Shown: one piece after another, positions 27,901 through 42,464 of the stretch
Layout: each line of letters begins with the position of its first letter
Numbering within the stretch: the stretch's first letter is position 1
Virus record (IMG/VR): IMGVR_UViG_3300029349_000001
Location: 1 to 64,000 of that record
Source: a virus
Length of the DNA stretch: 64,000 bases
Direction: 5' to 3' (one strand)
Translations under genes and position numbers: made by a program
Notes under the pieces: generated by a model
The model's input: only the letters and a program-made list of their open reading frames with translations
Database searches by the model: none
Told to the model about the DNA's origin: nothing

Positions 27901-30900
27901 GTACAAGCAGCTATGAAAAAACTAGCAAGAACACTAGAACGAGGAGACAAAACCTTTAAGTTTGATAATAAGAACTATAATAAAAACAATCCCGCAACAA
28001 GACAAAACAAAAAAGAAAGAGTCGGACTAAAGGGCAAGCCAGCCGGTACAGGAACATCAAAAGCTTCTACCAATGAAGCCAATTTTGAAGCAAATAAAGT
28101 AAAAATGATTGCTGATTTACAAAAATATGAAAAAGCACAATACGACAAAGAGAGAAAAAAGGGAAAAACAGCACAAGAAGCCAGAGAGTCGTCTAAAGCA
28201 GCAGCAATAGCTCGCACAAAACAAATAGCACAACCAATGTCTAAACAACAAGAAAGAGCGGTTACTGCACAAGCTATTCGTAAAGCTAGAGCATCTGGAG
28301 CAAATAATCAGGATGCAAAAAGATCAGGGCAAAATGCTTTAAATAATGCTAGAGCAAAACAACAAGCACAATCTCAAGGAGCTGCGATATTCAATACCGC
28401 CTCGGTGACCGGAGATAAAACGTCTTTAAGAAACGCCCTCGGTGGATACAACCCAGCTTCTGCCGCTAGAGCCGGAGGAGGAACCAGAACAGGCGGCGGA
28501 GGAGGAACAGGAGCAGGTGGTGGAGGATCATCTAGACGAAGAAGATCGTCTGGAGGAGGTCAGCAACCAGATAGGGATAATAATGGTCGTATAATGGGTA
28601 TGGGAAGATTAACTCAAGCTGGTTTTGGTATTAGCATGATGGGCGGTCTTGGTAGTCAGTTCTTTAATCCAGAATCTAGCGCATCAAATGCTGCGAATGC
28701 TGCTTTTACAGAAAGTTTTACTAGTACTATTGGTATGGGAGCGACCGTTGCTGGTAGTATAGGAGACTTGCTTAGTGGTAGTGGAGAAGATAACAACAGA
28801 AGAAGACCATCCAGAAATTCTCGCAACAGAGGAACATCAACTAGAACGAGACCACAAGCTTCTCCGTCGAGTCGAGGAAACAGTAGAAGCAGCGGCCCAA
28901 GGGTATCGTCTGGCAGCTCCGGTAGTGGCGACGGTAGTGGCTCAGGCATGGGAGTACTGGGAGGACTTGGTGCCGTACTGGGAGTTGTTGCAGTAGGAGG
29001 ACTTGCTTTAGCGGAGGGGTTGAAGGCCGCTCACAATGCTGCTAGAGAATTCACTATCAACCTAGCTAATAATAAACTACAAGAGTCATTAGAAAAAGCG
29101 AATAAGTCTGTAGAAAAATTTAGTAATAATCTCAAAGACCGAACAGCAGAGACCCAAGCGAAACGAGATACTCTAGATGTCGTTAAGGCTACCGATGCTT
29201 TAGACGCAGCTTCTTCAAAACCAGAAGCAGGATTATTTAATCTTGGAGATGCTATGTCCGGAGATAAGGGCAGTTTTGAGCGTAGTCAAATTCTTAATAA
29301 GAGGGGCATATCCGCATATCTTAGCACAACTAATATGTTTGGGGGAGAGAACGCAGCAAAAAATCAAGCTGCTCAATTTTCGACACTAATTCCACAGCTA
29401 GCATCTGAAAAATCCAAAAGATACACAGGAGCAGCAGAATCCTCCACTTCGTTCCTAGAATCAAAATTCCGTTCTGGCTCTAGTATAGACGAGATGAAGA
29501 AAGATAAAGACCAGTTTAGTAATCTCACAAAAAGCCTAGCATTAGCGGATGCTGCGATTCAACAACAGATTATGACTGTTGAAAATTCTACCACACTCAA
29601 TGATGCACAAAAGGCTACCCTTAAAAATAGTATCATAGCTACCAATGCTGAAACCAAAGCTAGAGAAATACAGACTAAAGTATTGAGAGAAATGGCTCTT
29701 GAAAGTCTTAATAAGACTACAATAATTTTACAAAATAGTCTCGAAAGAATGTTCCAGAACATGGAGCAAGCTATTGCTTCTAATGCATATGCATTGGATA
29801 AACTTACTGCTAGCGCAGACCTAGCATCCGCTTCCTTGTCCGGTTCTGCTAAAGTAGGATCGGTAAAACTAGATAGTATTAATACCCTACAGAACCCAAG
29901 GGCAAATAGCGGACAACCTATGAGATCCGCAGCTGATCAAGCAGCATCTATGTTTGGAAATGAAGCCCCGGCTATTAAGTCTATATTACAAGTTGCTTCT
30001 TCTATGGAAGATGCTGTAATGTCTACTATTAACAGTACTCTAAAAAATAATCCTGGTGCTACCAATGAACTTGTTGGTGGGTCTATAGATAAATCTATAT
30101 TTAAAGTATTAACCGATCTTAAATTACCTCCTGACTTGAGTTCCAAGCTATCTAGTGAAGTTGGTTTAGCTATTAAAGATATGAGAAAGTCTGGTGAAGA
30201 CAAGGTAGATTTTAGTCAGCTAGTTGAAAAAATACCACAACTCGGCAGAGTACTAGATAGTGCAAAAAGAGCGCAAGAAGTCGCTATTAAATCACTAGAA
30301 AATTGGCAAAATGCTTTAAATGAATATGCTAATACGACTAATCAATTAATTGATATACAAATAGATAGTAATCAAAAACTTAGAAGAGCTACAGATATAC
30401 TAATCGGTGGTCAAAATGAATTAGCTAATGCTTTTGGTAAATCGGCTTCATTACAAAGCGCTGTAAATAACTCCAAAGCCAAAACAGCTTCCCAAACAGG
30501 AGGACCAACCGACCCATCAGACATCCGTAGAAATATACAAAGTCTTGAATTAACAAGACAATCAGAGCAGGCTAGGTCAGATACTGCATCCCAAAAGGGT
30601 TTTGGTGGTAAAGATGAATTCATGATGATGCAAGAAAGGCTAAAAAATACTAGTGTTGCATTAAGAGAAAATTATGATGCTCTTAAGAACATGGCGGACA
30701 ACACAGATGTTGCCAGCGCCGCCCTAAATAAAATTTCTGAAATTAGACAACAAAGACAGGCGGGAGTCGGTTTTGCTGAAAAGCTAGTATCCAGTACTCC
30801 CAAAGAATTAGCAAATCTTAATATGTCAATGGCCAGACTGCAAAACAACATGGCTGGTGGAATGAATATGTCCAATGCTAGCCAAAGAGCTGGCGACCTA

Positions 30901-33900
30901 CAGCTGTTCAACGAACTGGCTCCTTTGCTGGGAGATAAGCAATCAGAGATGAAAGCTAATGTTTTAGAAAACATGCTCAAAGAATCTGGAGTTGGAGTGA
31001 GTCCAATGATGCAGGAGGTTCTGACATCTCTAAGGAATCCGGAGGCCGATCCGGCCATGCAAGAAGCTATTGCTACTTATAGAGAAGCTATCGGTCTTCA
31101 AGCAGAGGCCAATAAACAATTAGTTTTTCTTAATACTCAAATGGCAGAGAATAGTGCGGATATAGCTGCTAATAAATTGGCTCAATCTATGCGTGGTGTT
31201 ATACTAAAATTTGAAAGCCAGCAATTATTAGATATTAATAATAACATCAAAAATTTAATTGCAGTAGTAGAGGCCAAAGGTGGCTTGGCGCCGGGCGCTG
31301 CTCCGGCCGCAGGAAAAGCTCGTGGAGGAATGATATATGCCGCGGCTGGACAGTTGGTTGACTTTCAACCAAAAGGAACAGATACCGTTCCTGCTATGTT
31401 AACACCCGGTGAATTTGTGGTTAATAGAAAATCTACACAAAAACATTTACCATTACTTAAATCTATTAATAGCAACTCATATTCTAATGGTGGTAAAGTA
31501 GGATACTATGCTTATGGAGGATTGGTATTCGGAGATCCTTGGCAGAGAGAAGATAAAGCAGATGCTCTTAATAGGTCGGCCTCTGTTGAAAACGAAACAC
31601 CAGATAGACATCCTGATCTACTAAAAAATATGAGTAAAAGTAAGGGAGATTTGTCCAAATATTTTGAAGATATCTTTTCTGTTCAAGGGGCGTTTTATGC
31701 TGCCAATAAAAACTCTGGCCCTGTATCTGATTGGTTTTTTGACAAATTTACCGGCTCATTTTCTGGGCTACAACCACAAGCTGTTTTGGGTTCCTCATAT
31801 TCTAAGTTTGTTGCTTCTGTCGGTCCGGGAGTCGTCGATTATACTAATATTACCAGATCAGGAAATGTTAGAACTCCTAAAATTGGTAATATCCCAACCC
31901 TGGAATTCTTTTCAGATATAGTTTCTCAAACAGCGGAACAGAAAAAAATCAAAGAATCACAAATAAAAGAATATTATGGTGTGCTAGACAATATACTTAA
32001 ATTTATGCCAAAAACAGAGATATCTGGCGATAGTATCAAAGTTGATGGGAAAAATATAATTATAGATAGTCTTCTTGATCCAAAATCTAGACCAGACTTA
32101 TCTCCCCAGGTTGATGTTACTTCAACAGCCGATGGCTACAAACAATTGATAACCGTATCTAATCTTTCTAAAAAAACGGGTAATTTGCATGGTTTATATA
32201 CTAAAAATAATATAAATACTATTCATGCAAATAGTGATGATATGGGTGGAATCGGGAATATATATGGTATTAATGCACAGAATAGGGATCTAAGCGGATA
32301 TCCATATACTAGGATAGTAGCCGGATTGGATAGTATGAGATATGCTGGCCTAGGAGGCTTCTCTTCTATGGATATAGCTGGAGACCTTGCTTCTCAGACA
32401 ACTAATTATGACAATTCCATGTTCGATGGTGATATGGCACAAATTAAACAGAGACTATCTAATGCTCAGATAGTGAAAGCTAATCTAGAAAGAACAAAAG
32501 AACTATTATCTGGCGGTAACGTTAAACTTCAAGAGAGTGAAACATCAGAAGCTAATAGAAACTATGTAAATAAACTACAACAATTACTTAGCGGTTCGGT
32601 ATTTAAAGCGACTTTTTCCGAAGCCGAAATAAAAGGAAAAGATTCTGTCAAGCCACCCATAACTCTGTATAACCTAGATGGTAATGATTGGGATTCTAGA
32701 GTAGATGTTCTTGACAAGGATGCTTCTGTTACAAAAGGAACGTACGCTGGTAAAAAGGGCTCTAGCTGGATCCCTGTTGGATCAAGAACCATGGGCGTGG
32801 GAACAGTACCTGATCAATTTAGTATTCAAAAATGGTTTCCTTGGGTTGGGTCTGGATTTAATTCTACTATTTTTGATGATCTTAAAAACAAATATAATGC
32901 ACAGAATCCAAACAATGTAAAGGTAACTCCAGGATCATATGCTGATGATATAATGGCATTTAATTATAAAAACATAGAAGGACCTATGTTCGATGCTAAT
33001 AAAAAGATGACCAAAAACAAATACAAGTTTACAACAGTTTCGCTGGATCAAAATACTGTAAACGAGAAACTGAATCCGTTCCGAGACTTAGTTGATCAAA
33101 ACCTTCTTCCACAAGATCCAGAAAAATCCGAGATTTACGCAAACACTCCGGGTGATCTAATAGGTATGATCAAAAATTTGGTCAATAATACTATTCTAAG
33201 AACTCAACAAAACACTTTATCATTTGGTAGTTCTATTAAGAGATTATCAGCAGCAGACAAAGCTATAGCAGACCTAGATTTTGCTCAACAAACAAAAGAT
33301 AATGCTTATTTACTTAATTCTATAGCACCAGGATTTCAATACGAAGCAAAATTATATGGAGACGAACTAAGAAAGAGAATAGCACAACAAAAACAAGATC
33401 AACAAGCAGCAGCTGGAGAAAAAGGGATAGCCAATAAAGCAAATCTTCAAGACCTACCAGAAAATCCGCTATTGTTAGCCGAACAAGCGAGAGGCATAGT
33501 TAGTAAAGTCTTATCTCCTGTTTCTGGAATTTTATCTGCATACAATATTAAACTCTCTCCTATTAGAGTAGCATCTCAAATTGCTCCATACGGTAATTAT
33601 TTATTACAGGCTCAACAGTTTTTTGGTGATGCTGTAACTCAAAAATTTAAAAACAACAAGAAGGGAATAGACCAAAGACTATGGAATGTCTGGGGAGCGC
33701 TCGGGGCCTCTGGTAAAGTATTTGAAAAACTAGGAGCGGGAGATAAGCAGGGGCTACAAACCCTATTAGGTTCTGCTGCTAGTACTCTAGATAGTACAGA
33801 TTTAGGAGATATGGTTGTACGATATGGTCAATTGTTAGCGGCTCAAGGAGCAACATTCGCTGGTACAGCTGGGCTATCTACTCCGAAAGACGTACTAAAG

Positions 33901-35016
33901 AAAGAAATTGGAGACAACGACAAACAAACAATAGAAGGTATATTTAAGAAAGCTCAAACAGAAGAGGCTACAGTAGCCAGAGATGGTAGATTAACCGTAA
34001 ATAAAACCGAAGGAAGGAATCTGCCGACCAACTTATTAGATCTCGGAAAGAAAATAGTTAACCCATACTCCACATTCCAACCTGGAGATCGTAGTCCTTT
34101 ATTTGATATTCTTCTCAAAGGATTGGAAACACACGACAACAAGGGGGTTAAACGCAATGTTAATGAAAAATTAGTCACCAATCTCAAAGCTCTAAAACAG
34201 TTCTATGCTTCATTTTTAGATCCGATAGTAAGCGGAGGGGTTGCTCCAAATGATGATATGATACGGCAGATATCTGATCAGTATCCAACAATGAACGCTA
34301 TTTTACAAGTATTAACTAATGGCGAATATGGAGCGATGCCGGATGCTAAAAAAATGCAAGAGCTTGCAGCTGCTAAAAAAGCCAGAATGGAAGCAGAGAA
34401 AAAGGCTAGTGGCGGCATAGTATATGCGAGCACTGGAACCCTAGTAGACTATAAACCCAGAGGGACTGATACTGTTCCAGCGATGTTAACACCAGGAGAA
34501 TTTGTAGTTAATAGACAATCAACATCCAAACACTTACCATTATTACGTGCTATTAATAGTAATAGATATCAAACAGGTGGCGTTGTATCCCCCAACTATT
34601 ATGAAGCCGGTGCGCTTGCATCAGGAGCAGCAAAGACTGTCGGTGCTATAGCAGGCATGGTCGGTATCAAATTAGATACCAAAAAACTAGAGACAGATAT
34701 TACATCAGCATTCGATAGCGGTTCTCAACAACTAAAGAGTCAACTTCAGGGTATTTTTGGATTAAAATCAGAAGACCGCAATGCATTAATATCATTTGGT
34801 ACTAGTATGGTAAGACTAGTATCTCAGCTAGCTCAAGTTAGTATACCTCCAGAAATTAAGTTCAGTATGCAGCCAGTACAAGTGAATATTACAGGCGCTC
34901 AAGGATTGACAGAGGCTGCTCAAAGTCTAATTGATGGAGCAATCAAGAAAGCTTTTGATGATTTTTTAAGTATTAATGATTTGCAGGGTACCTATAAAGC
35001 GCCAGATGAAAACTAG
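21973..35016 (+). CDS. Tail tape measure protein (4347 aa) with embedded enzyme-like domains
   Basis: TP901-type TMP core at ~22455-23430 (FDKELVKLQQVTG...LAQAGL...TRESAETIATGLRTIFTR); Gly/hydrophobic helices ~28620-29020; GTDTVPAMLTPGEFVVN motifs; position after tube and chaperone genes. Confidence 0.9.
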   Translation: MSTAFNLTAQLNLRGPTNVRNIVSGIRRQLGNITADVNLRIDPAATRNLTQLNTALTNFNATLRTTQTNAANTANALRGLANAINGINANNLPRNMTNIATASNRAAQATGRVTQQVGEARNQMEEFGRQSALAVRRFAAFSISAGIIVGFTNAINKGVRAFVEFDKELVKLQQVTGESAKGLSGLQKTIANLASGLGVSSSELINVSSTLAQAGLSARDTEKALKALALSSLAPSFDDMNKTVEGSIALMRQFGISAGQLDQALGSVNAVAAKFAVEASDIIAAIQRTGGVFAAASKGVSEGTDALNEFIAVFTSIRATTRESAETIATGLRTIFTRVQRGETIEALKQYGVNLTDLEGKFVGAYKAVELLSRGLGQIDPRDLRFSQIVEELGGFRQIGKVIPLIQQFATAQQALAVAQRGQGSLAEDAAIAQLSLANQIAKVREEFLTLIRDIGGTDTFQTIAKSALGLASALIKVADSVKGVLPVLGVVMAIRGTAALSSYARGFAGGMGNMRGGRRAASGGYIKYAAGGQVPVALMPGEAVIYPEAAKRIGTPTLRRMNYADKKMAKGGKVGMVPGTGNSDSFYTSLPAGSFVIRKKATQAMGAGRINDIASGRQKFAVGGEAKWRDVEAQMRGGRGRPSKNTTTVGEAVDKVSSKEYNNRKGRFKSDFPFIIRGLNRAGTKAQINEEAILDKYLKKGVNDLSKAIVNQTQGNITVPSSDIDIQNKESIYGGLFETALLKISKRSADKKDNSQNFDFPRGIGPILSNIFSGMPPSISTDVKRTAAANAGMKSNIANKLANEMASNRLPKQPMPVGVVSLSPMDSAIVSKISGAEVNKLLNTKLKQKSKSQRRAIGGLIQKFAKGGLATRNVGYIDSDEITQLLKDSVKGPLIKAEMDRLGIKGVTEYKEHLANLAATRRNDGSLKRLTNIFGVAGSGKSTMLQGGSRAAEADNARLRKTNRYPVLTEQDILRSDQIVDSTSVAGPTQRTALSSADRVIALSSRTKESQEALKKNRKSRDTSGRNLFGRRPGSTKSAPLDSGMGEAYIAASGVSGVDPKKVVTMKLGEKFRKTRTSQPTVRTPDKTGLFYGNFGPTTKGHTSVVKEAEKMGIPAKDFVALVGGDTPIDYTDKDPHSRRTAIFPQKSSDQLPSRLGMARAAFGAMGANVSAMPKGSGPGSIPSAFKVGEDSYIVPRGKGDIAFVGDEKESGSLSKYEKLGYGVKSLPRSGGISGTKAREAIAANDIPALKKLLSPAGFEYVQKHMATLQQRPKLLDAILSKIERNSASGKGTAGRLSQIKSQLADLPSRVSKTTPADVVAKIESLRKERDSLSSKVGRLPSKLMSRLEQRQKFAVGDEVKKRKIKKINPNDYSQSIQNLQNDPNSILRQQAVGVAILQGPKKGVADSAVSKKSIIQSVGKQYSDLLGSAVSGGSIGIQREALKPQVYKDFNEGIENGLVQAVNTAVGTISSKYPELPTPAINGEEERRKYLKGVNDAAKGNMFEEMLTSMRNKGQYDANPDPQRSFDFAPNKGSAFGLSNIFDKISSLLYVDAKASNPSDAAISKKIANQTLRDLGVIKGRKSKDVPDQGSMERDISKRLQSVTEDSPLSLQDLQKELPNAKLKMTNSIAKSMGLVVDRAGGKTNFIRPRVGQPRRLARGGFANRLAVSDHDMTGAVTAGKETPSLSQFKDPKLAVPDIMSGSPTKLIGLLKQYGATQILTARSGGPKGEMRDALKRFYNKNGLLIPDSRITTLGDQINDIPTPERKARALFDLVKKYGKVDFFDDDPRNIEAAKDVKGVNARRVKVRKASGGSIPSSIDNSLSLNRSAKDKRLDSKKLAAFLGAKTTTSTKQQELAERLKDLGVSAPSKPNYEELLKGLKGYAKGGEVPIVAQEGEYVINRKSAKAIGYGNLHALNKYHTGGIVQKFGAGGPLDSAMASMSAKDAAKLKVSISKNAKAFDQLEKGVKGWPIDAVQAAMKKLARTLERGDKTFKFDNKNYNKNNPATRQNKKERVGLKGKPAGTGTSKASTNEANFEANKVKMIADLQKYEKAQYDKERKKGKTAQEARESSKAAAIARTKQIAQPMSKQQERAVTAQAIRKARASGANNQDAKRSGQNALNNARAKQQAQSQGAAIFNTASVTGDKTSLRNALGGYNPASAARAGGGTRTGGGGGTGAGGGGSSRRRRSSGGGQQPDRDNNGRIMGMGRLTQAGFGISMMGGLGSQFFNPESSASNAANAAFTESFTSTIGMGATVAGSIGDLLSGSGEDNNRRRPSRNSRNRGTSTRTRPQASPSSRGNSRSSGPRVSSGSSGSGDGSGSGMGVLGGLGAVLGVVAVGGLALAEGLKAAHNAAREFTINLANNKLQESLEKANKSVEKFSNNLKDRTAETQAKRDTLDVVKATDALDAASSKPEAGLFNLGDAMSGDKGSFERSQILNKRGISAYLSTTNMFGGENAAKNQAAQFSTLIPQLASEKSKRYTGAAESSTSFLESKFRSGSSIDEMKKDKDQFSNLTKSLALADAAIQQQIMTVENSTTLNDAQKATLKNSIIATNAETKAREIQTKVLREMALESLNKTTIILQNSLERMFQNMEQAIASNAYALDKLTASADLASASLSGSAKVGSVKLDSINTLQNPRANSGQPMRSAADQAASMFGNEAPAIKSILQVASSMEDAVMSTINSTLKNNPGATNELVGGSIDKSIFKVLTDLKLPPDLSSKLSSEVGLAIKDMRKSGEDKVDFSQLVEKIPQLGRVLDSAKRAQEVAIKSLENWQNALNEYANTTNQLIDIQIDSNQKLRRATDILIGGQNELANAFGKSASLQSAVNNSKAKTASQTGGPTDPSDIRRNIQSLELTRQSEQARSDTASQKGFGGKDEFMMMQERLKNTSVALRENYDALKNMADNTDVASAALNKISEIRQQRQAGVGFAEKLVSSTPKELANLNMSMARLQNNMAGGMNMSNASQRAGDLQLFNELAPLLGDKQSEMKANVLENMLKESGVGVSPMMQEVLTSLRNPEADPAMQEAIATYREAIGLQAEANKQLVFLNTQMAENSADIAANKLAQSMRGVILKFESQQLLDINNNIKNLIAVVEAKGGLAPGAAPAAGKARGGMIYAAAGQLVDFQPKGTDTVPAMLTPGEFVVNRKSTQKHLPLLKSINSNSYSNGGKVGYYAYGGLVFGDPWQREDKADALNRSASVENETPDRHPDLLKNMSKSKGDLSKYFEDIFSVQGAFYAANKNSGPVSDWFFDKFTGSFSGLQPQAVLGSSYSKFVASVGPGVVDYTNITRSGNVRTPKIGNIPTLEFFSDIVSQTAEQKKIKESQIKEYYGVLDNILKFMPKTEISGDSIKVDGKNIIIDSLLDPKSRPDLSPQVDVTSTADGYKQLITVSNLSKKTGNLHGLYTKNNINTIHANSDDMGGIGNIYGINAQNRDLSGYPYTRIVAGLDSMRYAGLGGFSSMDIAGDLASQTTNYDNSMFDGDMAQIKQRLSNAQIVKANLERTKELLSGGNVKLQESETSEANRNYVNKLQQLLSGSVFKATFSEAEIKGKDSVKPPITLYNLDGNDWDSRVDVLDKDASVTKGTYAGKKGSSWIPVGSRTMGVGTVPDQFSIQKWFPWVGSGFNSTIFDDLKNKYNAQNPNNVKVTPGSYADDIMAFNYKNIEGPMFDANKKMTKNKYKFTTVSLDQNTVNEKLNPFRDLVDQNLLPQDPEKSEIYANTPGDLIGMIKNLVNNTILRTQQNTLSFGSSIKRLSAADKAIADLDFAQQTKDNAYLLNSIAPGFQYEAKLYGDELRKRIAQQKQDQQAAAGEKGIANKANLQDLPENPLLLAEQARGIVSKVLSPVSGILSAYNIKLSPIRVASQIAPYGNYLLQAQQFFGDAVTQKFKNNKKGIDQRLWNVWGALGASGKVFEKLGAGDKQGLQTLLGSAASTLDSTDLGDMVVRYGQLLAAQGATFAGTAGLSTPKDVLKKEIGDNDKQTIEGIFKKAQTEEATVARDGRLTVNKTEGRNLPTNLLDLGKKIVNPYSTFQPGDRSPLFDILLKGLETHDNKGVKRNVNEKLVTNLKALKQFYASFLDPIVSGGVAPNDDMIRQISDQYPTMNAILQVLTNGEYGAMPDAKKMQELAAAKKARMEAEKKASGGIVYASTGTLVDYKPRGTDTVPAMLTPGEFVVNRQSTSKHLPLLRAINSNRYQTGGVVSPNYYEAGALASGAAKTVGAIAGMVGIKLDTKKLETDITSAFDSGSQQLKSQLQGIFGLKSEDRNALISFGTSMVRLVSQLAQVSIPPEIKFSMQPVQVNITGAQGLTEAAQSLIDGAIKKAFDDFLSINDLQGTYKAPDEN
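31378..34560 (+). repeat. Duplicated TMP module GTDTVPAMLTPGEFVVNRxSTxKHLPLLxxINS (copies at ~31378-31472 and ~34462-34560)
   Basis: Near-identical peptide copies flanking ~960 aa of unrelated sequence. Confidence 0.9.
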
Positions 35017-35067: not shown

Positions 35068-36501
35068 ATGATCAAATCCCCCATAAGAGTCGTTGAAAAT
35101 ATAGGATCTTATTGCCATGAGACTAATAATCGATTAGTTTTGGGCGAGATTCTAGATGGATATGCTGGACTATCTATTAATGACCATAATACATATATAC
35201 CATATATATGCAAGTCTTTTGATCTTAAAAACTGGGAGATAGGTATTGGTCTAGTGTCTGTTGTGGACTCCAAAGTTACTGTGGAGCGTGTTAGGGTAAT
35301 CAAAAAATCTTCAGAAAGTTATCAATTTGTTGGTAATAATAATCTATTTTATGTGTTTGCTAATGAATATAACTTTAATACTGGACTAAATAATTGTGTA
35401 GCATTAGAAGATCAAACAACTCTAGTTAATATTAAATGTACTTATTTAAAAACCAATGATTCTAAAGACACGTATGAACTACCCAGCAGCACAAATAATC
35501 AAGGATTAGCTATAGACTTTAAGAACACATCAGACTCAACTCTATATCTGCATAATTCAGATGAAAATGAGACATATGCTTGTGGACCCGGAGAATATCT
35601 TAAAGTTATAAGTGATGGAAATAGTTGGATTAAATTATACAGTGTGGTTGATTCTTTGGGTGTTGTGTCTTTATCAGCAGAACAACCGAACTATTTTAGT
35701 ACACAAAATCTAACAGCTTCTGGAATATACGGAGCCATACAATATAATAATAACGGCTCTATAGATGGTTCTAATCTAGTAATTAGCAGCGGATTATTAT
35801 TGCTAGGCAGTAGCTCAACGAACCCCTCGTCTGCTCAAAATATCATTCCATTATCTCTCTCTAATAAAGATACAATTTTTAATAACAACAATACTTCTGG
35901 CAATTTTATTGTTAAGGGTCTTGGTGATAAGAATTTAATTTTTACAAAAGATGGCAGACTAGGACTCAATATTCCCAGCGGTTCATTACCTCAAACAGCA
36001 TTGCACGTATTAAGTTATGCTTGTCAAGAAGGTATTAGGTTGGAAAATAGAAATTCCTGCTATCCTGCAAATCTGACCCTATATCATAAGCCTTCTACTT
36101 TGCCATCCAACGGCAGTATAGTATCAACCATTAATCTATCATCTAAAAACTCCGCCAATGCACAAGTTAATTACTCACAACTAAGATCCAAAATCATTAA
36201 TTCTGATTCTGTATCTAGTAGTGGCGAATTTGCTGTAGCAATACAGAATAACGGATCGTTAATAGAATCATTAAGAATTAATCCAACTGGATTTATAGCA
36301 TCTGTTAATACCAATTCTATTGTAGTAAATAATAATGGTATTCAATTAAACGGATCTTTAAGAACTAATCAGATTGCTACTAGTGGTAGCTTTATGATGA
36401 CTGATGGTAGTGGAAATTTAGTTTTGACAAGCCTTAATAATAGTCCTATAATAAGCTTGTTAGATGGTGATGTTGTCACATTTACTGGAGTATGTTCATG
36501 A
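35068..36501 (+). CDS. Tail fibre/appendage-like protein
   Basis: 477 aa; N-terminal RV.E...WEIGIG fibre-attachment-like segment, G.IQYNNNG and GRLGLN..PQTALHV motifs. Confidence 0.6.
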   Translation: MIKSPIRVVENIGSYCHETNNRLVLGEILDGYAGLSINDHNTYIPYICKSFDLKNWEIGIGLVSVVDSKVTVERVRVIKKSSESYQFVGNNNLFYVFANEYNFNTGLNNCVALEDQTTLVNIKCTYLKTNDSKDTYELPSSTNNQGLAIDFKNTSDSTLYLHNSDENETYACGPGEYLKVISDGNSWIKLYSVVDSLGVVSLSAEQPNYFSTQNLTASGIYGAIQYNNNGSIDGSNLVISSGLLLLGSSSTNPSSAQNIIPLSLSNKDTIFNNNNTSGNFIVKGLGDKNLIFTKDGRLGLNIPSGSLPQTALHVLSYACQEGIRLENRNSCYPANLTLYHKPSTLPSNGSIVSTINLSSKNSANAQVNYSQLRSKIINSDSVSSSGEFAVAIQNNGSLIESLRINPTGFIASVNTNSIVVNNNGIQLNGSLRTNQIATSGSFMMTDGSGNLVLTSLNNSPIISLLDGDVVTFTGVCS

Positions 36502-37022
36502 AGATTAAAAGAGATATAACATCAGAATCAGCTCCAGCCGCAAATCAACTAGAAGTTGGCGAAATAGCTATTAATGCTAGAACAGGAATTTTATACTCCA
36601 AATTAGTAGACGGCACTGTTATAAAATGGTTGGGTGCTCCGGTCTGTGAATCAGAAAATAGTACTATTTGTCCAGTTCCAGTACCAGAGATTTCTTTTAG
36701 TGACATTTCTAATTTTTGTTGTGGTGGTGATAGTTTAACATTATATGTTAGTAACTTATTGGTAGGACATAGATATTTTTGTACGATAACAGATCTTATA
36801 GAGGATTCTACAGCAGTAGTTTCTCCAGAAGAACCACCATTGTTACCAAATAATAAATCGGATAGATCTGCTACATTTAATATCAATATAGATAAAGAAT
36901 TACAAAGTATATCTATGTTTAAAGTTAGCGTATATGAAATTGTTAAAGTTAATAATATAGACACCAATATGTTGCGTTCTGAAAAGCTAATCAACATTTG
37001 CTGTCGTAACTGCGCAGGATAA
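36492..37022 (+). CDS. Virion protein: fibre N-terminal motif plus Cys-capped beta-sandwich
   Basis: IKR...APAANQLEVGEIAIN...GILY, then the NL..G..Y...KVS..E...IC beta domain. Confidence 0.6.
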   Translation: MFMKIKRDITSESAPAANQLEVGEIAINARTGILYSKLVDGTVIKWLGAPVCESENSTICPVPVPEISFSDISNFCCGGDSLTLYVSNLLVGHRYFCTITDLIEDSTAVVSPEEPPLLPNNKSDRSATFNINIDKELQSISMFKVSVYEIVKVNNIDTNMLRSEKLINICCRNCAG

Positions 37023-37811: not shown

Positions 37812-40800
37812 ATGCCTACTCCGCCACCGGCCCCAATTACCATTAAATTTGATTTTAGACACTATATACCCAACCAGGATTTATCTGCTGGTACTGTGCA
37901 ATTGGACGGAATGGATTGTGCTGACAAGAGTTTTGTAGCCACCATATTGGCCGAAAATCTCATGCCAGGACATAGTTATAGAACCACATATGAACTGGTC
38001 AATCCTCAAACTGATCAAAAGGTCTTCAATCCAGCTTCTTCTGATTTATATGCTTCTTATGGATCTCAAAATTTTGTTACGTCCGTTGTATTGCCTAAAG
38101 GACCAGATAAAGAATCTAATAGTTATGTACTCAAGGCCACTATTACAGATCTAACAGAAGGATCTACGGCAACAGCCTCTACTCAGATAAATCTTATCTG
38201 TGGCATAAAGAGACAGGTTTTTGAGGTAGAGCTTTTAGATCCAGATTCGCTCACATCTAGAGATGATGTTGTGGACTTGGGAGATTGTACTAACGGTTTT
38301 CCACTCGTTGGTGTTATTAAAAATGCTTTAATCGGCAAAGAATACGACTATCAACTATATGACAATCCAGCAGGAAGTATAATTTTTGAAAAACAAACAG
38401 GAAATGTTTATGCTGGAGATATTAATCAAAATTTTAATTCTAAAGTAGCCCTATCAGGCTATCCGTACGTATTCGTTCATGCTAAGGTTACAGAAAAAGA
38501 TACTGGAATATCTAGATTCAGTGATCCTTTACTATTAAAATGTTTTCAAACAGATCCGTGTGATGTTGCATTACCAACCGGAATAGATTGTTCTGTTGGA
38601 GCATACACATTAAAGAGATGTTCTTCTAGGGGTTTGACCACAGCTAGTTTATCTTCATTTTATGGAGGCACGGGTTTCTCTATTGGAGACAAGCTAACCA
38701 CTACTGGAGGCGGTGGCTACGGAGCAGAAATTGAAATTTTATTTGGTGGTATTACCGTAGATACGTTTAGTTCATTTCATGGTGGTTCCGGCTTCAACAT
38801 CAATGATCTTATTGAAGTTACTGGCGGTGGTGGCTCGGGAGGTTTAATTAAGATCATATCTGGTGGACTTACCAACGCCTCTATAGATTCTTTAAATGGC
38901 TGTTCAGGATTTAAGATTGGAGATTTGTTAACTACAGTAGGTGGAGGCGGCAAAGACGCACTAATAACAGTTACGGCCACAGGAGTAAACGGCAGTATTT
39001 CCGGATATTCAGTAACCCATTCGGGTTATGGATTTATAGATGCTCCAAGCGGTGTTATAGCTATTAATGGTAACGGCGCTTGTGCTAGTGCGTCTTTCAA
39101 TGATGATAATTTTACTATACCACCAGCAGGAGGCATTACTTCTGATTCATTGAATTTGGAGGGTGGTACCGGATATAATATTGGAGAAATACTAAACATA
39201 GTAGGTGGCGGCGGCACCGGAGCACAAGTTAAAATACTTTCCGGTTCTCTAACAGTAGCATCTATTAATAGTCTTGGTGGAGGAACAGGCTATTCTGTTG
39301 GCGATTATCTAACCACAGTAGGAGGAGGCGGTTCAGATGTTGTAATAAGAGTTACTGCTGTCGGCCCCAATGGTGAAATCTTAGCTTGGGAAATACTTAA
39401 TCCAGGATACGGGTTTACATCTGCTCCAACAGGATTAGTAGCTCTTACTGGATCTGGTACTGGAGCTACATTAGTGGCTAATGCCAATAATTTTGCGATT
39501 ACATCTGAAGGATCTATTACCGAAGATAGTATTATTAATTTAATCGGATCTGGCTCAGGATATCAAGTTGGAGATGAACTAATTGTTGTGGGCGGTGGAG
39601 GATCTGGTGCCGTAATCGTGATTACAGAAGTAAGTCCAACAGGCGCTATACTTGCTTATATTATTAAGAACCCCGGCTCTGGATATGATAGCATTCCTCA
39701 AATTGTGGACGAGAACCAGGTTCCTATTGTGCCACAACCATCTTGGAATATCTCTGAGTTTACAGACAATAGTTATGTTATTATTAATGCTGGTTCCGGA
39801 TACCAAAATCCGCCTACTGCTATCACATCAACTAACGGCGATGGCACAGGAGCAGAATTTGATGTTGATGTTACAAGATATACAGATCCAGCATTTATTG
39901 TTGTTAATACTGGTAGCGGATATACTTCAGCACCTACTGGCATAATAGTAAGGAGCGGAGATGGTTCTGGTGTTACAGCAACCTTTAACGATGACAGTTT
40001 CACTATTCCTTGTGCTGGTGGTATTACTTATGAATCTATCTCTGGACTTATTGGTAAGTCTTCTTTCTTAAATGGCGAAGAACTAGTTGTTGATGGAGGA
40101 GAGGGATCTGGAGGAAGAATTAAAGTTACAGCAGTAAATAACGGTGCTATAGTATCGTTTGTAGTCCTAAACGCTGGTTGTGGCTATACTGATGTTCCTA
40201 CTCTAAAGAGACTAAACGGCTTAGCTATAAATGGAGTGACTTTCGACGTAGAAGATTTTACCGATTTGGCTGTTATTGTTACCAATCCGGGTGCCGGTTT
40301 CTCTGATACTCCAACAGGCATAGAAGTATTGACCGGAGGAGGCAGCGTAGAAGATATATTTGTTGTATTTGATCCAGAGAAATTTATTGAAATAGTAGGA
40401 CCAATTCCTACTCCTCCAGTGCCAACTCCCACGGTAACCCCATCTCAGTCTCCACCAGTTCTATGCAACGACCTACAAACAGCTGGTGGACAAAACATTA
40501 TTTCTAATACTAAAACAATAAATATTGCACCAAGCGGACAAAACTTTATTGTGGTAGAAAATACAGAAGGACTTAATAAATATTCAATTGTAAGTTTAAA
40601 CAATGTACCTGCTGGAACCTATGTTGTAGATGTAACCAATTGGTTTGCTAATTTTGATAATCGTGTTCTCTATAAGAAAATTACTCTAAGTAATGCCATC
40701 ACTGGCGAAGTACCAGTAAATACCCCTGTTACTATTTATTCTACAGATATTAGATTAATTAAAGTTCCTTATTGGCCCGGCAATATGACATTCTCATACG

Positions 40801-41147
40801 ACGCCTATAGCGTACCAGACAGATTCAGAGTATTTGCAGTACCTATGGACTCTAGATTACCAGACGTACTATTGTTTGATAGTGGCTATAGAGGAAGTGA
40901 AGGTTGTGGATATGCCAACAATTTAAGTGGTCTTGGTTCCGGTAGTGTTCAACTGATGAAGCCGGATGGTTCTACTTTTATCAAGGTTGTGGTAGAAGCC
41001 CCATGCGAAGGAACGGCGTGGGAATATGCTCTATCGTGTCCACAAAGAGTATTTACTACTGTAACTTCTACACCTACACCCACACCAACTTTGACCCCAA
41101 GTATTACTCCTACAATTACCGTAACTCCATCTAGATCTAGCCTATAA
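37812..41147 (+). CDS. Virion appendage protein with seven nested Gly-rich (GxGY) repeats
   Basis: 1111 aa; two Cys-capped domains, GxG(F/Y)..GD...GGGG and NxGxGY...P repeats, C-terminal Pro/Thr tail. Confidence 0.7.
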   Translation: MPTPPPAPITIKFDFRHYIPNQDLSAGTVQLDGMDCADKSFVATILAENLMPGHSYRTTYELVNPQTDQKVFNPASSDLYASYGSQNFVTSVVLPKGPDKESNSYVLKATITDLTEGSTATASTQINLICGIKRQVFEVELLDPDSLTSRDDVVDLGDCTNGFPLVGVIKNALIGKEYDYQLYDNPAGSIIFEKQTGNVYAGDINQNFNSKVALSGYPYVFVHAKVTEKDTGISRFSDPLLLKCFQTDPCDVALPTGIDCSVGAYTLKRCSSRGLTTASLSSFYGGTGFSIGDKLTTTGGGGYGAEIEILFGGITVDTFSSFHGGSGFNINDLIEVTGGGGSGGLIKIISGGLTNASIDSLNGCSGFKIGDLLTTVGGGGKDALITVTATGVNGSISGYSVTHSGYGFIDAPSGVIAINGNGACASASFNDDNFTIPPAGGITSDSLNLEGGTGYNIGEILNIVGGGGTGAQVKILSGSLTVASINSLGGGTGYSVGDYLTTVGGGGSDVVIRVTAVGPNGEILAWEILNPGYGFTSAPTGLVALTGSGTGATLVANANNFAITSEGSITEDSIINLIGSGSGYQVGDELIVVGGGGSGAVIVITEVSPTGAILAYIIKNPGSGYDSIPQIVDENQVPIVPQPSWNISEFTDNSYVIINAGSGYQNPPTAITSTNGDGTGAEFDVDVTRYTDPAFIVVNTGSGYTSAPTGIIVRSGDGSGVTATFNDDSFTIPCAGGITYESISGLIGKSSFLNGEELVVDGGEGSGGRIKVTAVNNGAIVSFVVLNAGCGYTDVPTLKRLNGLAINGVTFDVEDFTDLAVIVTNPGAGFSDTPTGIEVLTGGGSVEDIFVVFDPEKFIEIVGPIPTPPVPTPTVTPSQSPPVLCNDLQTAGGQNIISNTKTINIAPSGQNFIVVENTEGLNKYSIVSLNNVPAGTYVVDVTNWFANFDNRVLYKKITLSNAITGEVPVNTPVTIYSTDIRLIKVPYWPGNMTFSYDAYSVPDRFRVFAVPMDSRLPDVLLFDSGYRGSEGCGYANNLSGLGSGSVQLMKPDGSTFIKVVVEAPCEGTAWEYALSCPQRVFTTVTSTPTPTPTLTPSITPTITVTPSRSSL

Positions 41148-41159
41148 TAGAGACATAAT

Positions 41160-42464
41160 ATGAGTGATTATTTATTATTAAAAATTAGTATTCTAGAACA
41201 TTCTACGGCCACAGAAAATTGTAGGCTTAGTGAGGATATTTTAACAGTAATTTGTGATCCGGTGCCAAGTCCAACACCAACAGCTACAAACACACCAACA
41301 CCAACACTCACAACCACTCCGACTAATACTCCTACAAATACATCAACACCCACACCGACCGCTACTGTTACAGCTTCTCCGATCACTCCTACGCCAACTC
41401 CGACAGCAACGAACACACCGACCCTAACACCAACATCTAGTGTAACTCCAACAGTTACGCCTACATTAACAGCCACGCCTACCGCTACACTAACACCGAC
41501 ACCAACAAATACTTTAATTATTCCACCAATCGTTAGTTTTAATGACACTAGTGATCAATTATATTTCTTTAATCTAAATGACTCAAGTGTTTTACTACAA
41601 ACACAAAAATCATTAGATAATGGTACTAGTTGGCAAGATATAGGTCCCTTTATCAGTGTAGATTCGAACTCAGGCATCTATGTTTCCCACACAGACAACT
41701 CCGCTGCTAAATTTAGATCTAGAGCATTTAGTTCCGGAGGCGGATCGATTGTTAGTCCTTGGTCATATGAATACGCATATGCTAATTCTGATAATTTAAA
41801 TGCTCCAGTTATTAACTATAATTACGACAATGGACTATTACAATTATTTAATTTAAATGATTTTAATGTTATTGCCCTTATAGAAAAATCAGAAGATGGA
41901 AACGTATGGCATAATATTACTGATTATAACGTAACTATGAATGCTAATAGTAGTAGATCTATGGCAGTAAATGCTAGTATTAGCACTAAATTCAGAGCTT
42001 TGGTCTTTACTCAATCATCTGGTGCTTCTGTTAGTTCTTGGGCTGTTACAAACAATCCTGTTGTAAGTCCCACACCCACAACAACACAAACATCTACGCC
42101 AACCCCAACTCCCACTTTAACATCTACAGCAACACCAACTCCTACTGTTACCGCTTCTCCTGGGGCTAATATAGTGTTAAATTCGGCCAACAATTGGACG
42201 TATGTGTTGAATAACTCGGTAATTTTAAAGTTTGTAAGACAAGACACAACCCAAACCAATATTAGTATTAATGTTCCGGCAAATAATATTACTCTTGTAG
42301 CTAATAATAGTGTTCCTAGTGTATCTAATATTGTATTTAATACAAACATTATTGGTCAGCTTATATATAATGGTCCTATATTCGAAAATAAGCCATTTAC
42401 TATGCGTATTGGTTCTACACCTTACTCTGGCACTATAAACTTCCAAACAATAACATTATCTTAA
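41160..42464 (+). CDS. Pro/Thr-rich virion appendage protein
   Basis: 434 aa; orphan two-strand N-terminus, long PT linkers, duplicated FnIII-like unit (FNLND...KS.D.G..W...KFR). Confidence 0.7.

What the first reader, a model, noticed from the sequence alone, without database searches (positions are those of the whole stretch)
38630..40400. Fractal protein: seven repeat domains nested as a binary tree
Seen: each unit has an opening half A (GxG(F/Y)xxG(D/E)xL...GGGG) and a closing half B (NxGxG(Y/F)xxxP). The order is A A A B A A B A B B B A B B (A near 38652, 38769, 38892, 39156, 39273, 39543, 40050; B near 39012, 39393, 39663, 39780, 39900, 40164, 40278), which is balanced bracketing. The four leaf units keep a VTA.G.NG.I-type hairpin between A and B; in the three internal units it is replaced by a pair of child units. 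All left children end F(T/A)I...G(G/S)IT and all right children end (F/Y)TD. Inference: recursive insertion of a two-domain cassette into its own hairpin makes a branched, dendrimer-like polypeptide.
Basis: seen in the sequence. Interest (0 to 1): 0.85.

Follow-up and report, generated by a model that had tools for sequence, protein, structure and literature searches.

The report
Self-nested beta-barrels in phage tail protein
A 1,111-residue tail-module protein of a large uncultured phage most likely folds its middle 600 residues into seven small beta-barrels inserted inside one another as a strict binary tree. This build is published for cyanobacterial RNA polymerase, and I found no paper describing it in a phage tail protein.

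Summary
ORF 37812-41147 (+) has seven opening halves (A) and seven closing halves (B) in the order AAABAABABBBABB. Each scores 35-68 bits against HMMs built only from relatives at most 70% identical; shuffles reach at most 8 bits.

I could not see model coordinates, so the nesting rests on five indirect lines:
- **Grammar:** 43 relatives with 7, 9, 11, 13 or 19 units all obey U -> AB | A U U B.
- **Intra-unit cysteines:** the Cys pair of leaf unit 3 recurs in internal units only twice, both times in bracket partners 225-393 residues apart.
- **Sibling cysteines:** a second Cys pair links a left child's tail to its right sibling's closing half, even when five halves intervene.
- **Fragment test:** AlphaFold2 gives pLDDT 92.5 and pTM 0.85 for the whole region. 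With residues 439-870 removed, orphan A1 loses its strands and falls to pLDDT 65-85, while leaf unit 3 stays at 92-97.
- **Complex:** the N- and C-terminal pieces are predicted to dock, with weak support.

The leaf is a six-stranded barrel, weakly like T4 sheath domain I. The gene lies downstream of the tape measure gene. The Si3 insertion of cyanobacterial RNA polymerase is the published precedent. This scan noted the same family and similar phage cases on other DNA. I class it as a new variant of a known kind.

The parts
37812..41147 (+). Whole gene, 1,111 aa (P0001), including the stop codon
   Evidence: more than 45 close relatives
37812..38627 (+). N-terminal region, aa 1-272, fold not determined; possibly Ig-like beta-sandwiches
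   Evidence: No Pfam family; only weak Atlas feature leads
38628..38744 (+). A1, opening half of root unit 1 (aa 273-311)
   Evidence: loses its strands when aa 439-870 are absent
38745..38861 (+). A2, opening half of internal unit 2, the left child of the root (aa 312-350)
   Evidence: its partner B2 carries the matching Cys in P0035
38862..38993 (+). A3, opening half of leaf unit 3 (aa 351-394), with invariant Cys364
38994..39125 (+). B3, closing half of leaf unit 3 (aa 395-438), with invariant Cys424 and the left-child tail FTIPPAG
39126..39242 (+). A4, opening half of internal unit 4, the right child of unit 2 (aa 439-477)
   Evidence: its partner B4 carries the matching Cys in P0038
39243..39374 (+). 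A5, opening half of leaf unit 5 (aa 478-521)
   Evidence: unit 5 aligns with T4 gp18 domain I
39375..39512 (+). B5, closing half of leaf unit 5 (aa 522-567), tail FAITSEG
39513..39644 (+). A6, opening half of leaf unit 6 (aa 568-611)
39645..39761 (+). B6, closing half of leaf unit 6 (aa 612-650), ends EFTD
39762..39881 (+). B4, closing half of internal unit 4 (aa 651-690), ends RYTD
39882..40013 (+). B2, closing half of internal unit 2 (aa 691-734), tail FTIPC with Cys734
40014..40145 (+). A7, opening half of leaf unit 7, the right child of the root (aa 735-778); degenerate motif
40146..40259 (+). B7, closing half of leaf unit 7 (aa 779-816), NAGCGY with Cys790, ends DFTD
40260..40406 (+). B1, closing half of root unit 1 (aa 817-865)
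40407..40493 (+). Pro/Thr-rich linker (aa 866-894)
   Evidence: Read directly from the translation
40494..41057 (+). C-terminal domain (aa 895-1082), fold and function not determined
   Evidence: No Pfam, PHROG or Atlas match
41058..41144 (+). Pro/Thr-rich C-terminal tail (aa 1083-1111)
   Evidence: Read directly from the translation

Best explanation
Residues 273-865 fold into seven copies of one small six-stranded beta-barrel of about 85 residues. Each barrel is made of an opening half A (three strands, G-x-G-Y/F ... GGGG) and a closing half B (three strands, N-x-G-x-G-Y/F-x3-P).

In four 'leaf' barrels the two halves are joined by a tight beta-hairpin. In three 'internal' barrels the tip of that hairpin is replaced by two complete barrels, a left type and a right type. 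The domain graph is therefore the binary tree 1(2(3,4(5,6)),7).

The chain enters and leaves through the root barrel. The 600-residue module is thus one compact, rigid, disulfide-stapled body set between the N-terminal region and a Pro/Thr linker that leads to the C-terminal domain.

Shown by computation:
- the motif order;
- the grammar in relatives;
- the cysteine covariation;
- the high model confidence;
- the loss of structure in halves deprived of their distant partner.

Inferred:
- the actual A-B contacts;
- that the tree grows by copying balanced blocks into leaf hairpins;
- that the protein is a tail-tip, baseplate or fibre component whose tree serves as a size-variable rigid scaffold or multivalent surface for host contact.
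For: 1. **Motifs.** 14 halves score 35-68 bits against HMMs built from relatives at most 70% identical; shuffles reach at most 8 bits. The order is AAABAABABBBABB.

2. **Grammar.** 43 complete relatives fall into five tree shapes with 7, 9, 11, 13 and 19 units and depth up to 8. All are balanced, and every node has 0 or 2 children. The truncated P0019 fits as a right subtree plus the root's closing half. Extra loci give the same 7- and 9-unit strings.

3. **Intra-unit Cys pair.** The pair (A position 13, B position 30) is invariant in leaf unit 3. In internal units it occurs twice: P0035 C322 + C715, and P0038 C450 + C675. Both times it sits in bracket partners; the table is 2/0/0/159, Fisher p = 8e-5.

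4. **Sibling Cys pair.** The left child's tail FTIPC pairs with the right sibling's closing NxGCGY.
   - When the sibling is internal, so that five halves intervene, 17 proteins have both cysteines and 59 have neither.
   - The pairing is never with the nearest B in sequence.
   - The pair was lost jointly in at least five lineages.

5. **AlphaFold2, whole region.** For aa 265-870 with 31 sequences, mean pLDDT is 92.5 and pTM 0.85.

6. **AlphaFold2, fragment.** For aa 269-438 alone:
   - leaf unit 3 keeps pLDDT 92-97 and the same strands;
   - A1 falls to 65-85 and loses its 10-residue strand;
   - A2 falls to 81-89 and its first strand is halved.

   Their pairing partners must therefore lie beyond aa 438.

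7. **ESMFold2 complex.** aa 269-438 against aa 735-870, which are 300 residues apart:
   - ipSAE 0.49 (runs 0.49, 0.00, 0.53); best control 0.00; verdict 'weak support';
   - 58 of 80 solved complexes and 2 of 110 mismatched pairs reached the mark;
   - at 0.60 or under, only 7 of those 80 solved complexes passed, and so did both mismatches that passed;
   - the runs agree in at least 4% of contacts, and the partner's pLDDT is at least 57.

8. **A leaf is one compact barrel.** T4 sheath gp18 domain I aligns across both halves, with Z 4.4-6.0, rmsd 2.7-3.0 A and 73-77 residues aligned.

9. **The hairpin tolerates insertion.** P0244 carries a foreign segment of about 130 aa in one leaf hairpin.

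10. **Block copying.** In P0121 both outer halves and the contents of the left subtree recur at 74-89% identity as a nested subtree in the right branch.

11. **Genomic context.** The gene lies four genes downstream of a 4,347-aa tape measure protein, among tail-fibre and baseplate-like genes. Structural neighbours in BFVD and the ESM Atlas are phage baseplate-wedge and virion proteins.
Against: - No coordinates, PAE or contact map could be read, so no A-B contact was seen directly.
- In the fragment test the orphan halves still have moderate pLDDT (65-89).
- The complex score is only 'weak support', and one of three runs gave 0.00.
- The Cys evidence for intra-unit pairing in internal units rests on two events.
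- The tree shapes share ancestry, so they represent perhaps 5-8 independent events.
- P0122 and P0245 appear, by eye, to have nodes with 3 or 6 children and degenerate halves.
- Linear arrays of a related 39-aa repeat exist (P0054), so this repeat can also be used without nesting.
- Function, oligomeric state and presence in the virion are untested.
Confidence: 0.78

Rival explanations
1. The region is a linear array or solenoid of fourteen repeats of about 39 aa, in which A and B are only two sequence flavours. Each repeat packs against its sequence neighbours, as in the long uniform arrays of related proteins.
For: - The period is 38-49 aa.
- Both halves share the G-x-G-Y/F core and a three-strand layout.
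- Relatives such as P0054 have more than 20 uniform 39-aa repeats that combine the A and B signatures in tandem.
Against: - No linear register fits the four tight hairpins, which lie at halves 3-4, 6-7, 8-9 and 12-13.
- Linear packing gives no reason for a strict balanced binary grammar in five architectures.
- Cys pairs link halves 225-393 residues apart rather than nearest neighbours.
- A1 loses its strands when only distant sequence is removed, although its neighbour A2 is still present.
- The two ends of the region are predicted to dock (weak support).
Confidence: 0.07
2. The A and B halves do pair, but partly between chains. The protein would be an intertwined oligomer, such as a trimer, in which orphan A halves are completed by B halves of neighbouring subunits, as in many phage fibres.
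For: Phage fibre and baseplate proteins are commonly intertwined trimers (general knowledge). All tests here used single chains or two fragments, and cysteine covariation does not tell intra-chain from inter-chain contacts.
Against: The monomer model is self-consistent at pTM 0.85 with no unpaired halves. The equal number of A and B halves, and the strict nesting order in every relative, are what intra-chain closure needs; swapping between chains would not need them.
Confidence: 0.08
3. The nesting is real, but it does not arise by inserting a two-domain cassette into a hairpin. Trees would grow by two coordinated tandem duplications, [internal A + left leaf] on the opening side and [B] on the closing side, and only balanced products would be kept by selection.
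For: In P0019, rows 1-3 and 4-6 are near-duplicates lying in tandem, and the closing halves in rows 20 and 21 both begin TKDSFVILD. A single unequal crossover cannot create a nested pair.
Against: In P0121 a whole balanced block, with both outer halves and its contents, recurs elsewhere in the tree. This fits block copy-and-insert. No unbalanced intermediates were seen.
Confidence: 0.3

Closest known systems
Si3 insertion of cyanobacterial RNA polymerase beta' (RpoC2): recursively inserted SBHM/HABAS domains (PMC10895346, PMC11515920, PMC13114784; PDB 8emb)
   Same: One small beta domain is inserted into copies of itself several levels deep, and several domains are built from distant stretches of the chain. 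Bifurcating nodes are reported there too. 8emb was the top Foldseek row for the whole model, but weakly (E 2.7e-3, TM 0.1).
   Different: - The protein and its setting differ: a phage tail-module protein, not a polymerase.
- The units here showed no SBHM match with VIA-align.
- The grammar here is regular (0 or 2 children, distinct left and right types).
- The number of units varies from 7 to 19 among close relatives.
- Si3 domains partly swap elements; nothing of that kind could be examined here.
Domain I of the T4 tail sheath protein gp18 (PDB 3fo8, 3foa; Klebsiella phage KP1 sheath 9ev2; Pfam PF22639 Gp18_dom_I)
   Same: It is the best solved match to a leaf unit. A barrel of about 85 residues aligns over 73-77 residues at rmsd 2.7-3.0 A, Z 4.4-6.0, 10-21% identity. 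From my own knowledge (Aksyuk et al. 2009, not checked here), gp18 domain I is itself an inserted domain.
   Different: The Z-scores are in the range the tool calls 'middling'. None of 49 leaf units hits PF22639 at E <= 1. gp18 has one copy, not a self-nested set.
Linear arrays of the 39-aa 'NxGSGYTSAPTV...GGGGSGA' repeat in phage virion and bacterial surface proteins (for example P0054 and the Atu_ph07 structural protein; PHROG 460, 701, 19630, 438)
   Same: The same sequence family. PHROG hits have E 1e-14 to 1e-11. These arrays carry the A and B signatures within a single repeat. Atu_ph07 annotates its copy as a virion structural protein.
   Different: Those arrays are uniform and tandem. 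Here the repeat has split into opening and closing types, and their order follows a bracket grammar.
Self-nested small barrels in cyanophage fibre and baseplate proteins noted earlier in this scan (e1-5349715, e1-5345196, e1-5326105, e1-5339554), and the same family with 9 units (e1-5704541, e1-5704542)
   Same: The same idea, domain-in-domain recursion in phage tail proteins. The 9-unit order 1(2(3,4(5,6)),7(8,9)) equals the shape I found for P0021, P0022, P0025 and P0034.
   Different: These are unpublished AI notes on other DNA. I did not test whether the other families are homologous to this one.

Membership tests
Recursive self-nested domain insertion (architecture class exemplified by Si3) | Domains built from sequence segments that are far apart, with complete domains in between | tested here: met
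   Indirect evidence only: the fragment test, Cys covariation between bracket partners and weak complex support. No contact map could be read.
Recursive self-nested domain insertion (architecture class exemplified by Si3) | Host and guest domains belong to the same family, over more than one level | tested here: met
   All 14 halves match the same two HMMs. The bracket depth is 4 here and up to 8 in P0121.
SBHM / HABAS fold (CATH 2.40.50.100) | The unit has the sandwich-barrel hybrid fold | tested here: inconclusive
   Foldseek gave only weak whole-model rows to 8emb, E. coli beta' and Spt5. No SBHM row appeared in either VIA search.
Gp18_dom_I (Pfam PF22639; T4 sheath domain I) | Sequence match to the Pfam model above its cut-off | tested here: not met
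   hmmscan of 49 leaf units and of the whole protein found no PF22639 hit at E <= 1. A profile search of PDB sequences did not find gp18.
Gp18_dom_I (Pfam PF22639; T4 sheath domain I) | Same fold as gp18 residues 98-188 | tested here: inconclusive
   It is the best match in both searches, but Z is only 4.4-6.0 (rmsd 2.7-3.0 A, 73-77 aligned).
39-aa GSGY/GGGG phage structural repeat (PHROG 460, 701, 19630, 438) | Significant profile match | tested here: met
   E-values are 1.8e-14, 9.5e-14, 1.4e-11 and 1.5e-4.
Phage tail-tip / baseplate / fibre module protein | Encoded in the tail module, downstream of the tape measure gene | tested here: met
   The tape measure protein at 21973-35016 matches PHROG 4211, 28 and 167. 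Tail-fibre and baseplate-like genes lie nearby.
Phage tail-tip / baseplate / fibre module protein | Present in the virion at the tail | not testable with these tools
   This needs virion proteomics or cryo-EM.

The most novel reading that the evidence does not exclude
This phage family follows a true generative grammar. Any leaf barrel can be opened at its hairpin to receive a left/right pair or a copied subtree, so close relatives differ by whole balanced subtrees (7 to 19 barrels, depth 4 to 8). The phage could then tune the size and valency of a rigid branched host-contact module in single genetic steps. That would be the clearest natural case of recursive protein architecture evolving in real time.
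Probability: 0.5. Interest if true: 0.75.

Novelty: new variant of a known kind. Interest (0 to 1): 0.62.

Why it matters
Recursive insertion of a domain into itself is documented in detail mainly for one cellular protein, the Si3 insertion of cyanobacterial RNA polymerase. Here the same principle appears in a fast-evolving phage tail protein, and it differs in three useful ways:
- it follows a simple rule, with 0 or 2 children and distinct left and right types;
- close relatives form a graded series of tree sizes;
- natural disulfide markers report which halves touch.

This gives structural biologists and protein designers a tractable natural system for asking how discontinuous domains fold, how deep nesting can go, and how such architectures grow. 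For phage biology it suggests a way to build compact, shear-resistant, size-adjustable modules on tail proteins. It also shows that domain annotation assuming contiguous repeats will misread such proteins.

Tried and rejected
- **Model coordinates.** They are not available in the script box, so no contact map was computed.
- **VIA-align topology check.** I hoped rows would span an internal unit and reveal a discontinuous domain. Only the leaf units (model 87-174, 218-296, 301-385, 470-553) were matched.
- **Mutual information.** Run with APC correction on the 31-sequence alignment, it gave only noise, with no excess for bracket partners or even for known leaf pairs. I dropped it.
- **hhalign of the A profile against the B profile.** Only the 8-column G-x-G-Y core aligned, at probability 1.8%. 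Common origin of the two halves is therefore not shown by this test. It is suggested only by the 39-aa repeats of P0054, which carry both signatures.
- **Family and sequence searches that found nothing:**
  - Pfam on the whole protein, on the N- and C-terminal parts and on 49 leaf units;
  - PDB sequence searches with the protein and with a leaf profile, which gave chance-level rows only;
  - Foldseek against PDB, with nothing at E <= 1e-3;
  - ESM Atlas features, with nothing usable for the C-terminal domain and only sub-0.9 leads for the N-terminal part;
  - DNA search of GenBank phages; the protein search found only a 21% stretch in Agrobacterium phage Atu_ph07.
- **Smaller trees.** A search among shorter proteins for 1, 3 or 5 units gave only fragments from contig ends.
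- **More relatives.** Scans of viral and metagenome contigs added 13 loci but no new architecture.
- **Orthology of unit 7.** Matching it between 7- and 9-unit proteins by half-wise identity gave nothing clear, at 0.5 or less.
- **First paper search.** The terms 'nested domain insertion' and 'recursive' were too broad to be useful.
Full report
**What is there.** The finding lies in one ORF, 37812-41147 on the + strand, encoding 1,111 aa (P0001).
- Regex and HMM scans find seven opening halves A (G-x-G-F/Y-x-x-G/N-D/E-x-L ... GGGG) and seven closing halves B ([N/H]-x-G-x-G-Y/F-x3-P).
- HMMs built only from relatives at most 70% identical score every half at 35-68 bits. 200 shuffles of the region never exceed 8 bits.
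- The four A-B neighbours are joined by a tight hairpin.
- The three B-to-A junctions read F-(T/A)-I-x-x-x-G-(G/S)-I-T. The three B-to-B junctions read (F/Y)-T-D.
- There is no DNA tandem repeat.

- A word-indexed search and an exhaustive HMMER search found about 50 close relatives.
- After one round of HMM refinement, 43 complete proteins fall into five shapes:

| Units | Proteins | Shape |
|---|---|---|
| 7 | 27 | ((o,(o,o)),o) |
| 9 | 4 | ((o,(o,o)),(o,o)) |
| 11 | 5 | ((o,(o,o)),(o,(o,o))) |
| 13 | 5 | ((o,(o,o)),(o,(o,(o,o)))) |
| 19 | 2 | ((o,(o,o)),(o,(o,((o,(o,(o,o))),o)))) |

- Every one is balanced, and every node has 0 or 2 children.
- Strings that failed were truncated genes (P0019, P0039, P0044) or divergent proteins at about 42% identity whose degenerate halves the HMM missed.
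  - By eye, P0045 and P0047 have the same 14 halves.
  - P0019 is a right subtree plus the root's closing half.
- P0122 and P0245 are the exception. By eye they are balanced, but they contain nodes with 3 and 6 children and remnants of halves. I did not verify this.
- Thirteen further loci from viral and metagenome contigs gave only the 7- and 9-unit strings.

**Structure prediction.**
- AlphaFold2 on aa 265-870, with 31 orthologues, gave mean pLDDT 92.5 and pTM 0.85. This indicates one confident, rigid body.
- Coordinates are not exposed, so I looked for indirect read-outs of the topology.

**Read-out 1: fragment test.**
- The same alignment cut to aa 269-438 (A1, A2 and leaf unit 3) was folded alone.
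- Leaf unit 3 kept pLDDT 92-97 and an identical strand pattern.
- A1 fell from 92-97 to 65-85 and lost nearly all its strands, including a 10-residue strand.
- A2 fell to 81-89, and its first strand was halved.
- The sequence neighbours of A1 and A2 were still present. The partners of their strands in the full model must therefore lie beyond aa 438, as nesting predicts and a neighbour-packing solenoid does not.

**Read-out 2: docking of the two ends.**
- ESMFold2 was given aa 269-438 and aa 735-870, which are 300 residues apart.
- It scored ipSAE 0.49 (runs 0.49, 0.00, 0.53) against 0.00 for the best of three controls. The tool's verdict is 'weak support'.
- Calibration: 58 of 80 solved complexes and 2 of 110 mismatches reached the mark. 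At 0.60 or under, only 7 of the 80 solved complexes passed, and so did both mismatches that passed.
- The runs agree in at least 4% of contacts, and the partner's pLDDT is at least 57.
- Both chains were more confident when the interface formed (72 and 79, against 52-60).

**Read-out 3: cysteine covariation.** This is the most discriminating evidence.
- *Intra-unit pair.*
  - Leaf unit 3 has an invariant pair, C364 in GCSGF and C424 in G-x-C-A-S-A-S-F.
  - At the homologous positions of internal units, a Cys occurs in the A half only twice among 161 internal units: P0035 A2 (C322) and P0038 A4 (C450).
  - In both cases, and in no other internal unit, the bracket partner has the matching Cys: B2 C715, 393 residues away, and B4 C675, 225 residues away.
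  - The table is 2/0/0/159, Fisher p = 8e-5.
- *Sibling pair.*
  - A second pair joins the tail of a left child (FTIPC) to the G-x-G-Y loop of the right sibling's closing half (NxGCGY).
  - In P0001 this is C734/C790 at the root.
  - At the node of unit 2, where the right sibling is itself internal and five halves intervene, 17 proteins have both cysteines and 59 have neither. None has the tail Cys alone, and the nearest B in sequence never carries it.
  - On a quick tree the pair was lost jointly in at least five lineages.
  - The same geometry therefore holds whether the right sibling is a leaf or a whole subtree.

**What the unit is.**
- Against the 1,000 best Foldseek chains, and against 48,161 PDB representatives, the best match to a leaf is domain I of the T4 tail sheath protein gp18. 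It aligns across both halves: Z 4.4-6.0, rmsd 2.7-3.0 A, 73-77 residues.
- The next matches are generic six-stranded barrels at Z of about 2-3.
- Pfam's Gp18_dom_I does not match by sequence, and a PDB profile search found nothing.
- Structural neighbours in BFVD and the ESM Atlas are phage baseplate-wedge, sheath-like and virion structural proteins, many from cyanophages.
- PHROG families 460, 701, 19630 and 438 match the repeat.
- More distant relatives carry long uniform arrays of a 39-aa repeat that combines both signatures. A and B therefore look like two specialised descendants of that repeat, although hhalign does not show it.

**How the tree grows.**
- Left-type units resemble each other more than they resemble right-type units: 0.58-0.61 against 0.42-0.43 identity in the larger proteins.
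- In P0121 the whole left subtree recurs at 74-89% identity as a nested subtree of the right branch, with both outer halves and all its contents. A balanced block was copied as a unit.
- P0244 has a foreign segment of about 130 aa in the hairpin of one leaf, which shows that the site tolerates insertion.
- In P0019, however, recent duplicates lie in tandem on both the opening and the closing side. Paired tandem duplications are therefore an alternative route.

**Context and function.**
- The gene lies four genes downstream of a 4,347-aa tape measure protein, among tail-fibre, baseplate-like and adhesin-like giant genes.
- Relatives sit on viral contigs of 150-235 kb.
- No close relative exists among GenBank phages. 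The nearest is a short stretch of a virion structural protein of Agrobacterium phage Atu_ph07.
- The N-terminal 272 residues and the C-terminal domain (aa 895-1082), which are set off by Pro/Thr linkers, match nothing.
- I infer that this is a tail-tip or baseplate-associated protein. The nested tree would be a compact, disulfide-stapled scaffold whose size varies between relatives, perhaps a multivalent surface for host contact. This is inference only.

**Comparison with what is known.**
- Recursive insertion of a domain into copies of itself is published for the Si3 insertion of cyanobacterial RNA polymerase beta'.
- Eight SBHM domains are described there, four of them built from distant segments (PMC10895346).
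- A survey of domain insertions cites the same case as a six-level nest with bifurcating nodes (PMC13114784).
- A full-text search for such nesting in phage tail fibres found no paper.
- Earlier notes of this scan report the same family with nine units on other DNA, and similar self-nested barrels in cyanophage fibres. They agree with my reading but are unchecked AI notes.
- I therefore class this as a new variant of a known kind.

Noticed in passing
P0244 aa ~975-1107 (relative, 2,313 aa): A foreign segment of about 130 aa, unrelated to the repeat, sits inside the hairpin of one leaf barrel between ...VKCV and ...NCPD. The leaf hairpin therefore accepts non-self inserts as well.
   Followed up: partly
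P0122 and P0245 (relatives, about 2,100 aa): Divergent Cys-rich versions. By eye, an 11-unit balanced block is inserted between the two children of unit 4. One node carries six children (three tandem left/right pairs), with remnants of halves such as ...SASIQIISA between them. The binary rule is therefore not absolute.
   Followed up: partly
P0121 halves 2-11 and 19-32: The whole left subtree is duplicated at 74-89% identity per half and sits nested in the right branch. This is a recent copy of a balanced block.
   Followed up: partly
P0040, P0042, P0043 (B4 loop): These relatives lack the tail Cys of the sibling pair. Instead they have two adjacent cysteines in the B4 G-x-G-Y loop, possibly a vicinal disulfide that replaces the pair.
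   Followed up: no
P0019, P0121, P0244 left-type leaves: The hairpins of left-type leaves in the larger relatives carry their own Cys pair (VKCV...NCPD) flanking the hairpin tip. P0001 lacks this pair.
   Followed up: no
window 41058-41250: The ORF ends in a Pro/Thr-rich tail. The next ORF starts 12 nt later (41160) and quickly enters another long Pro/Thr-rich stretch. Several neighbouring tail genes share such linkers.
   Followed up: no
window 21973-35016: A 4,347-aa tape measure protein (PHROG 4211, 28 and 167 match aa ~45-865).
   Followed up: partly
window 36492-36501: The ORFs 35068-36501 and 36492-37022 overlap by 10 nt in different frames, directly upstream of the gene studied.
   Followed up: no
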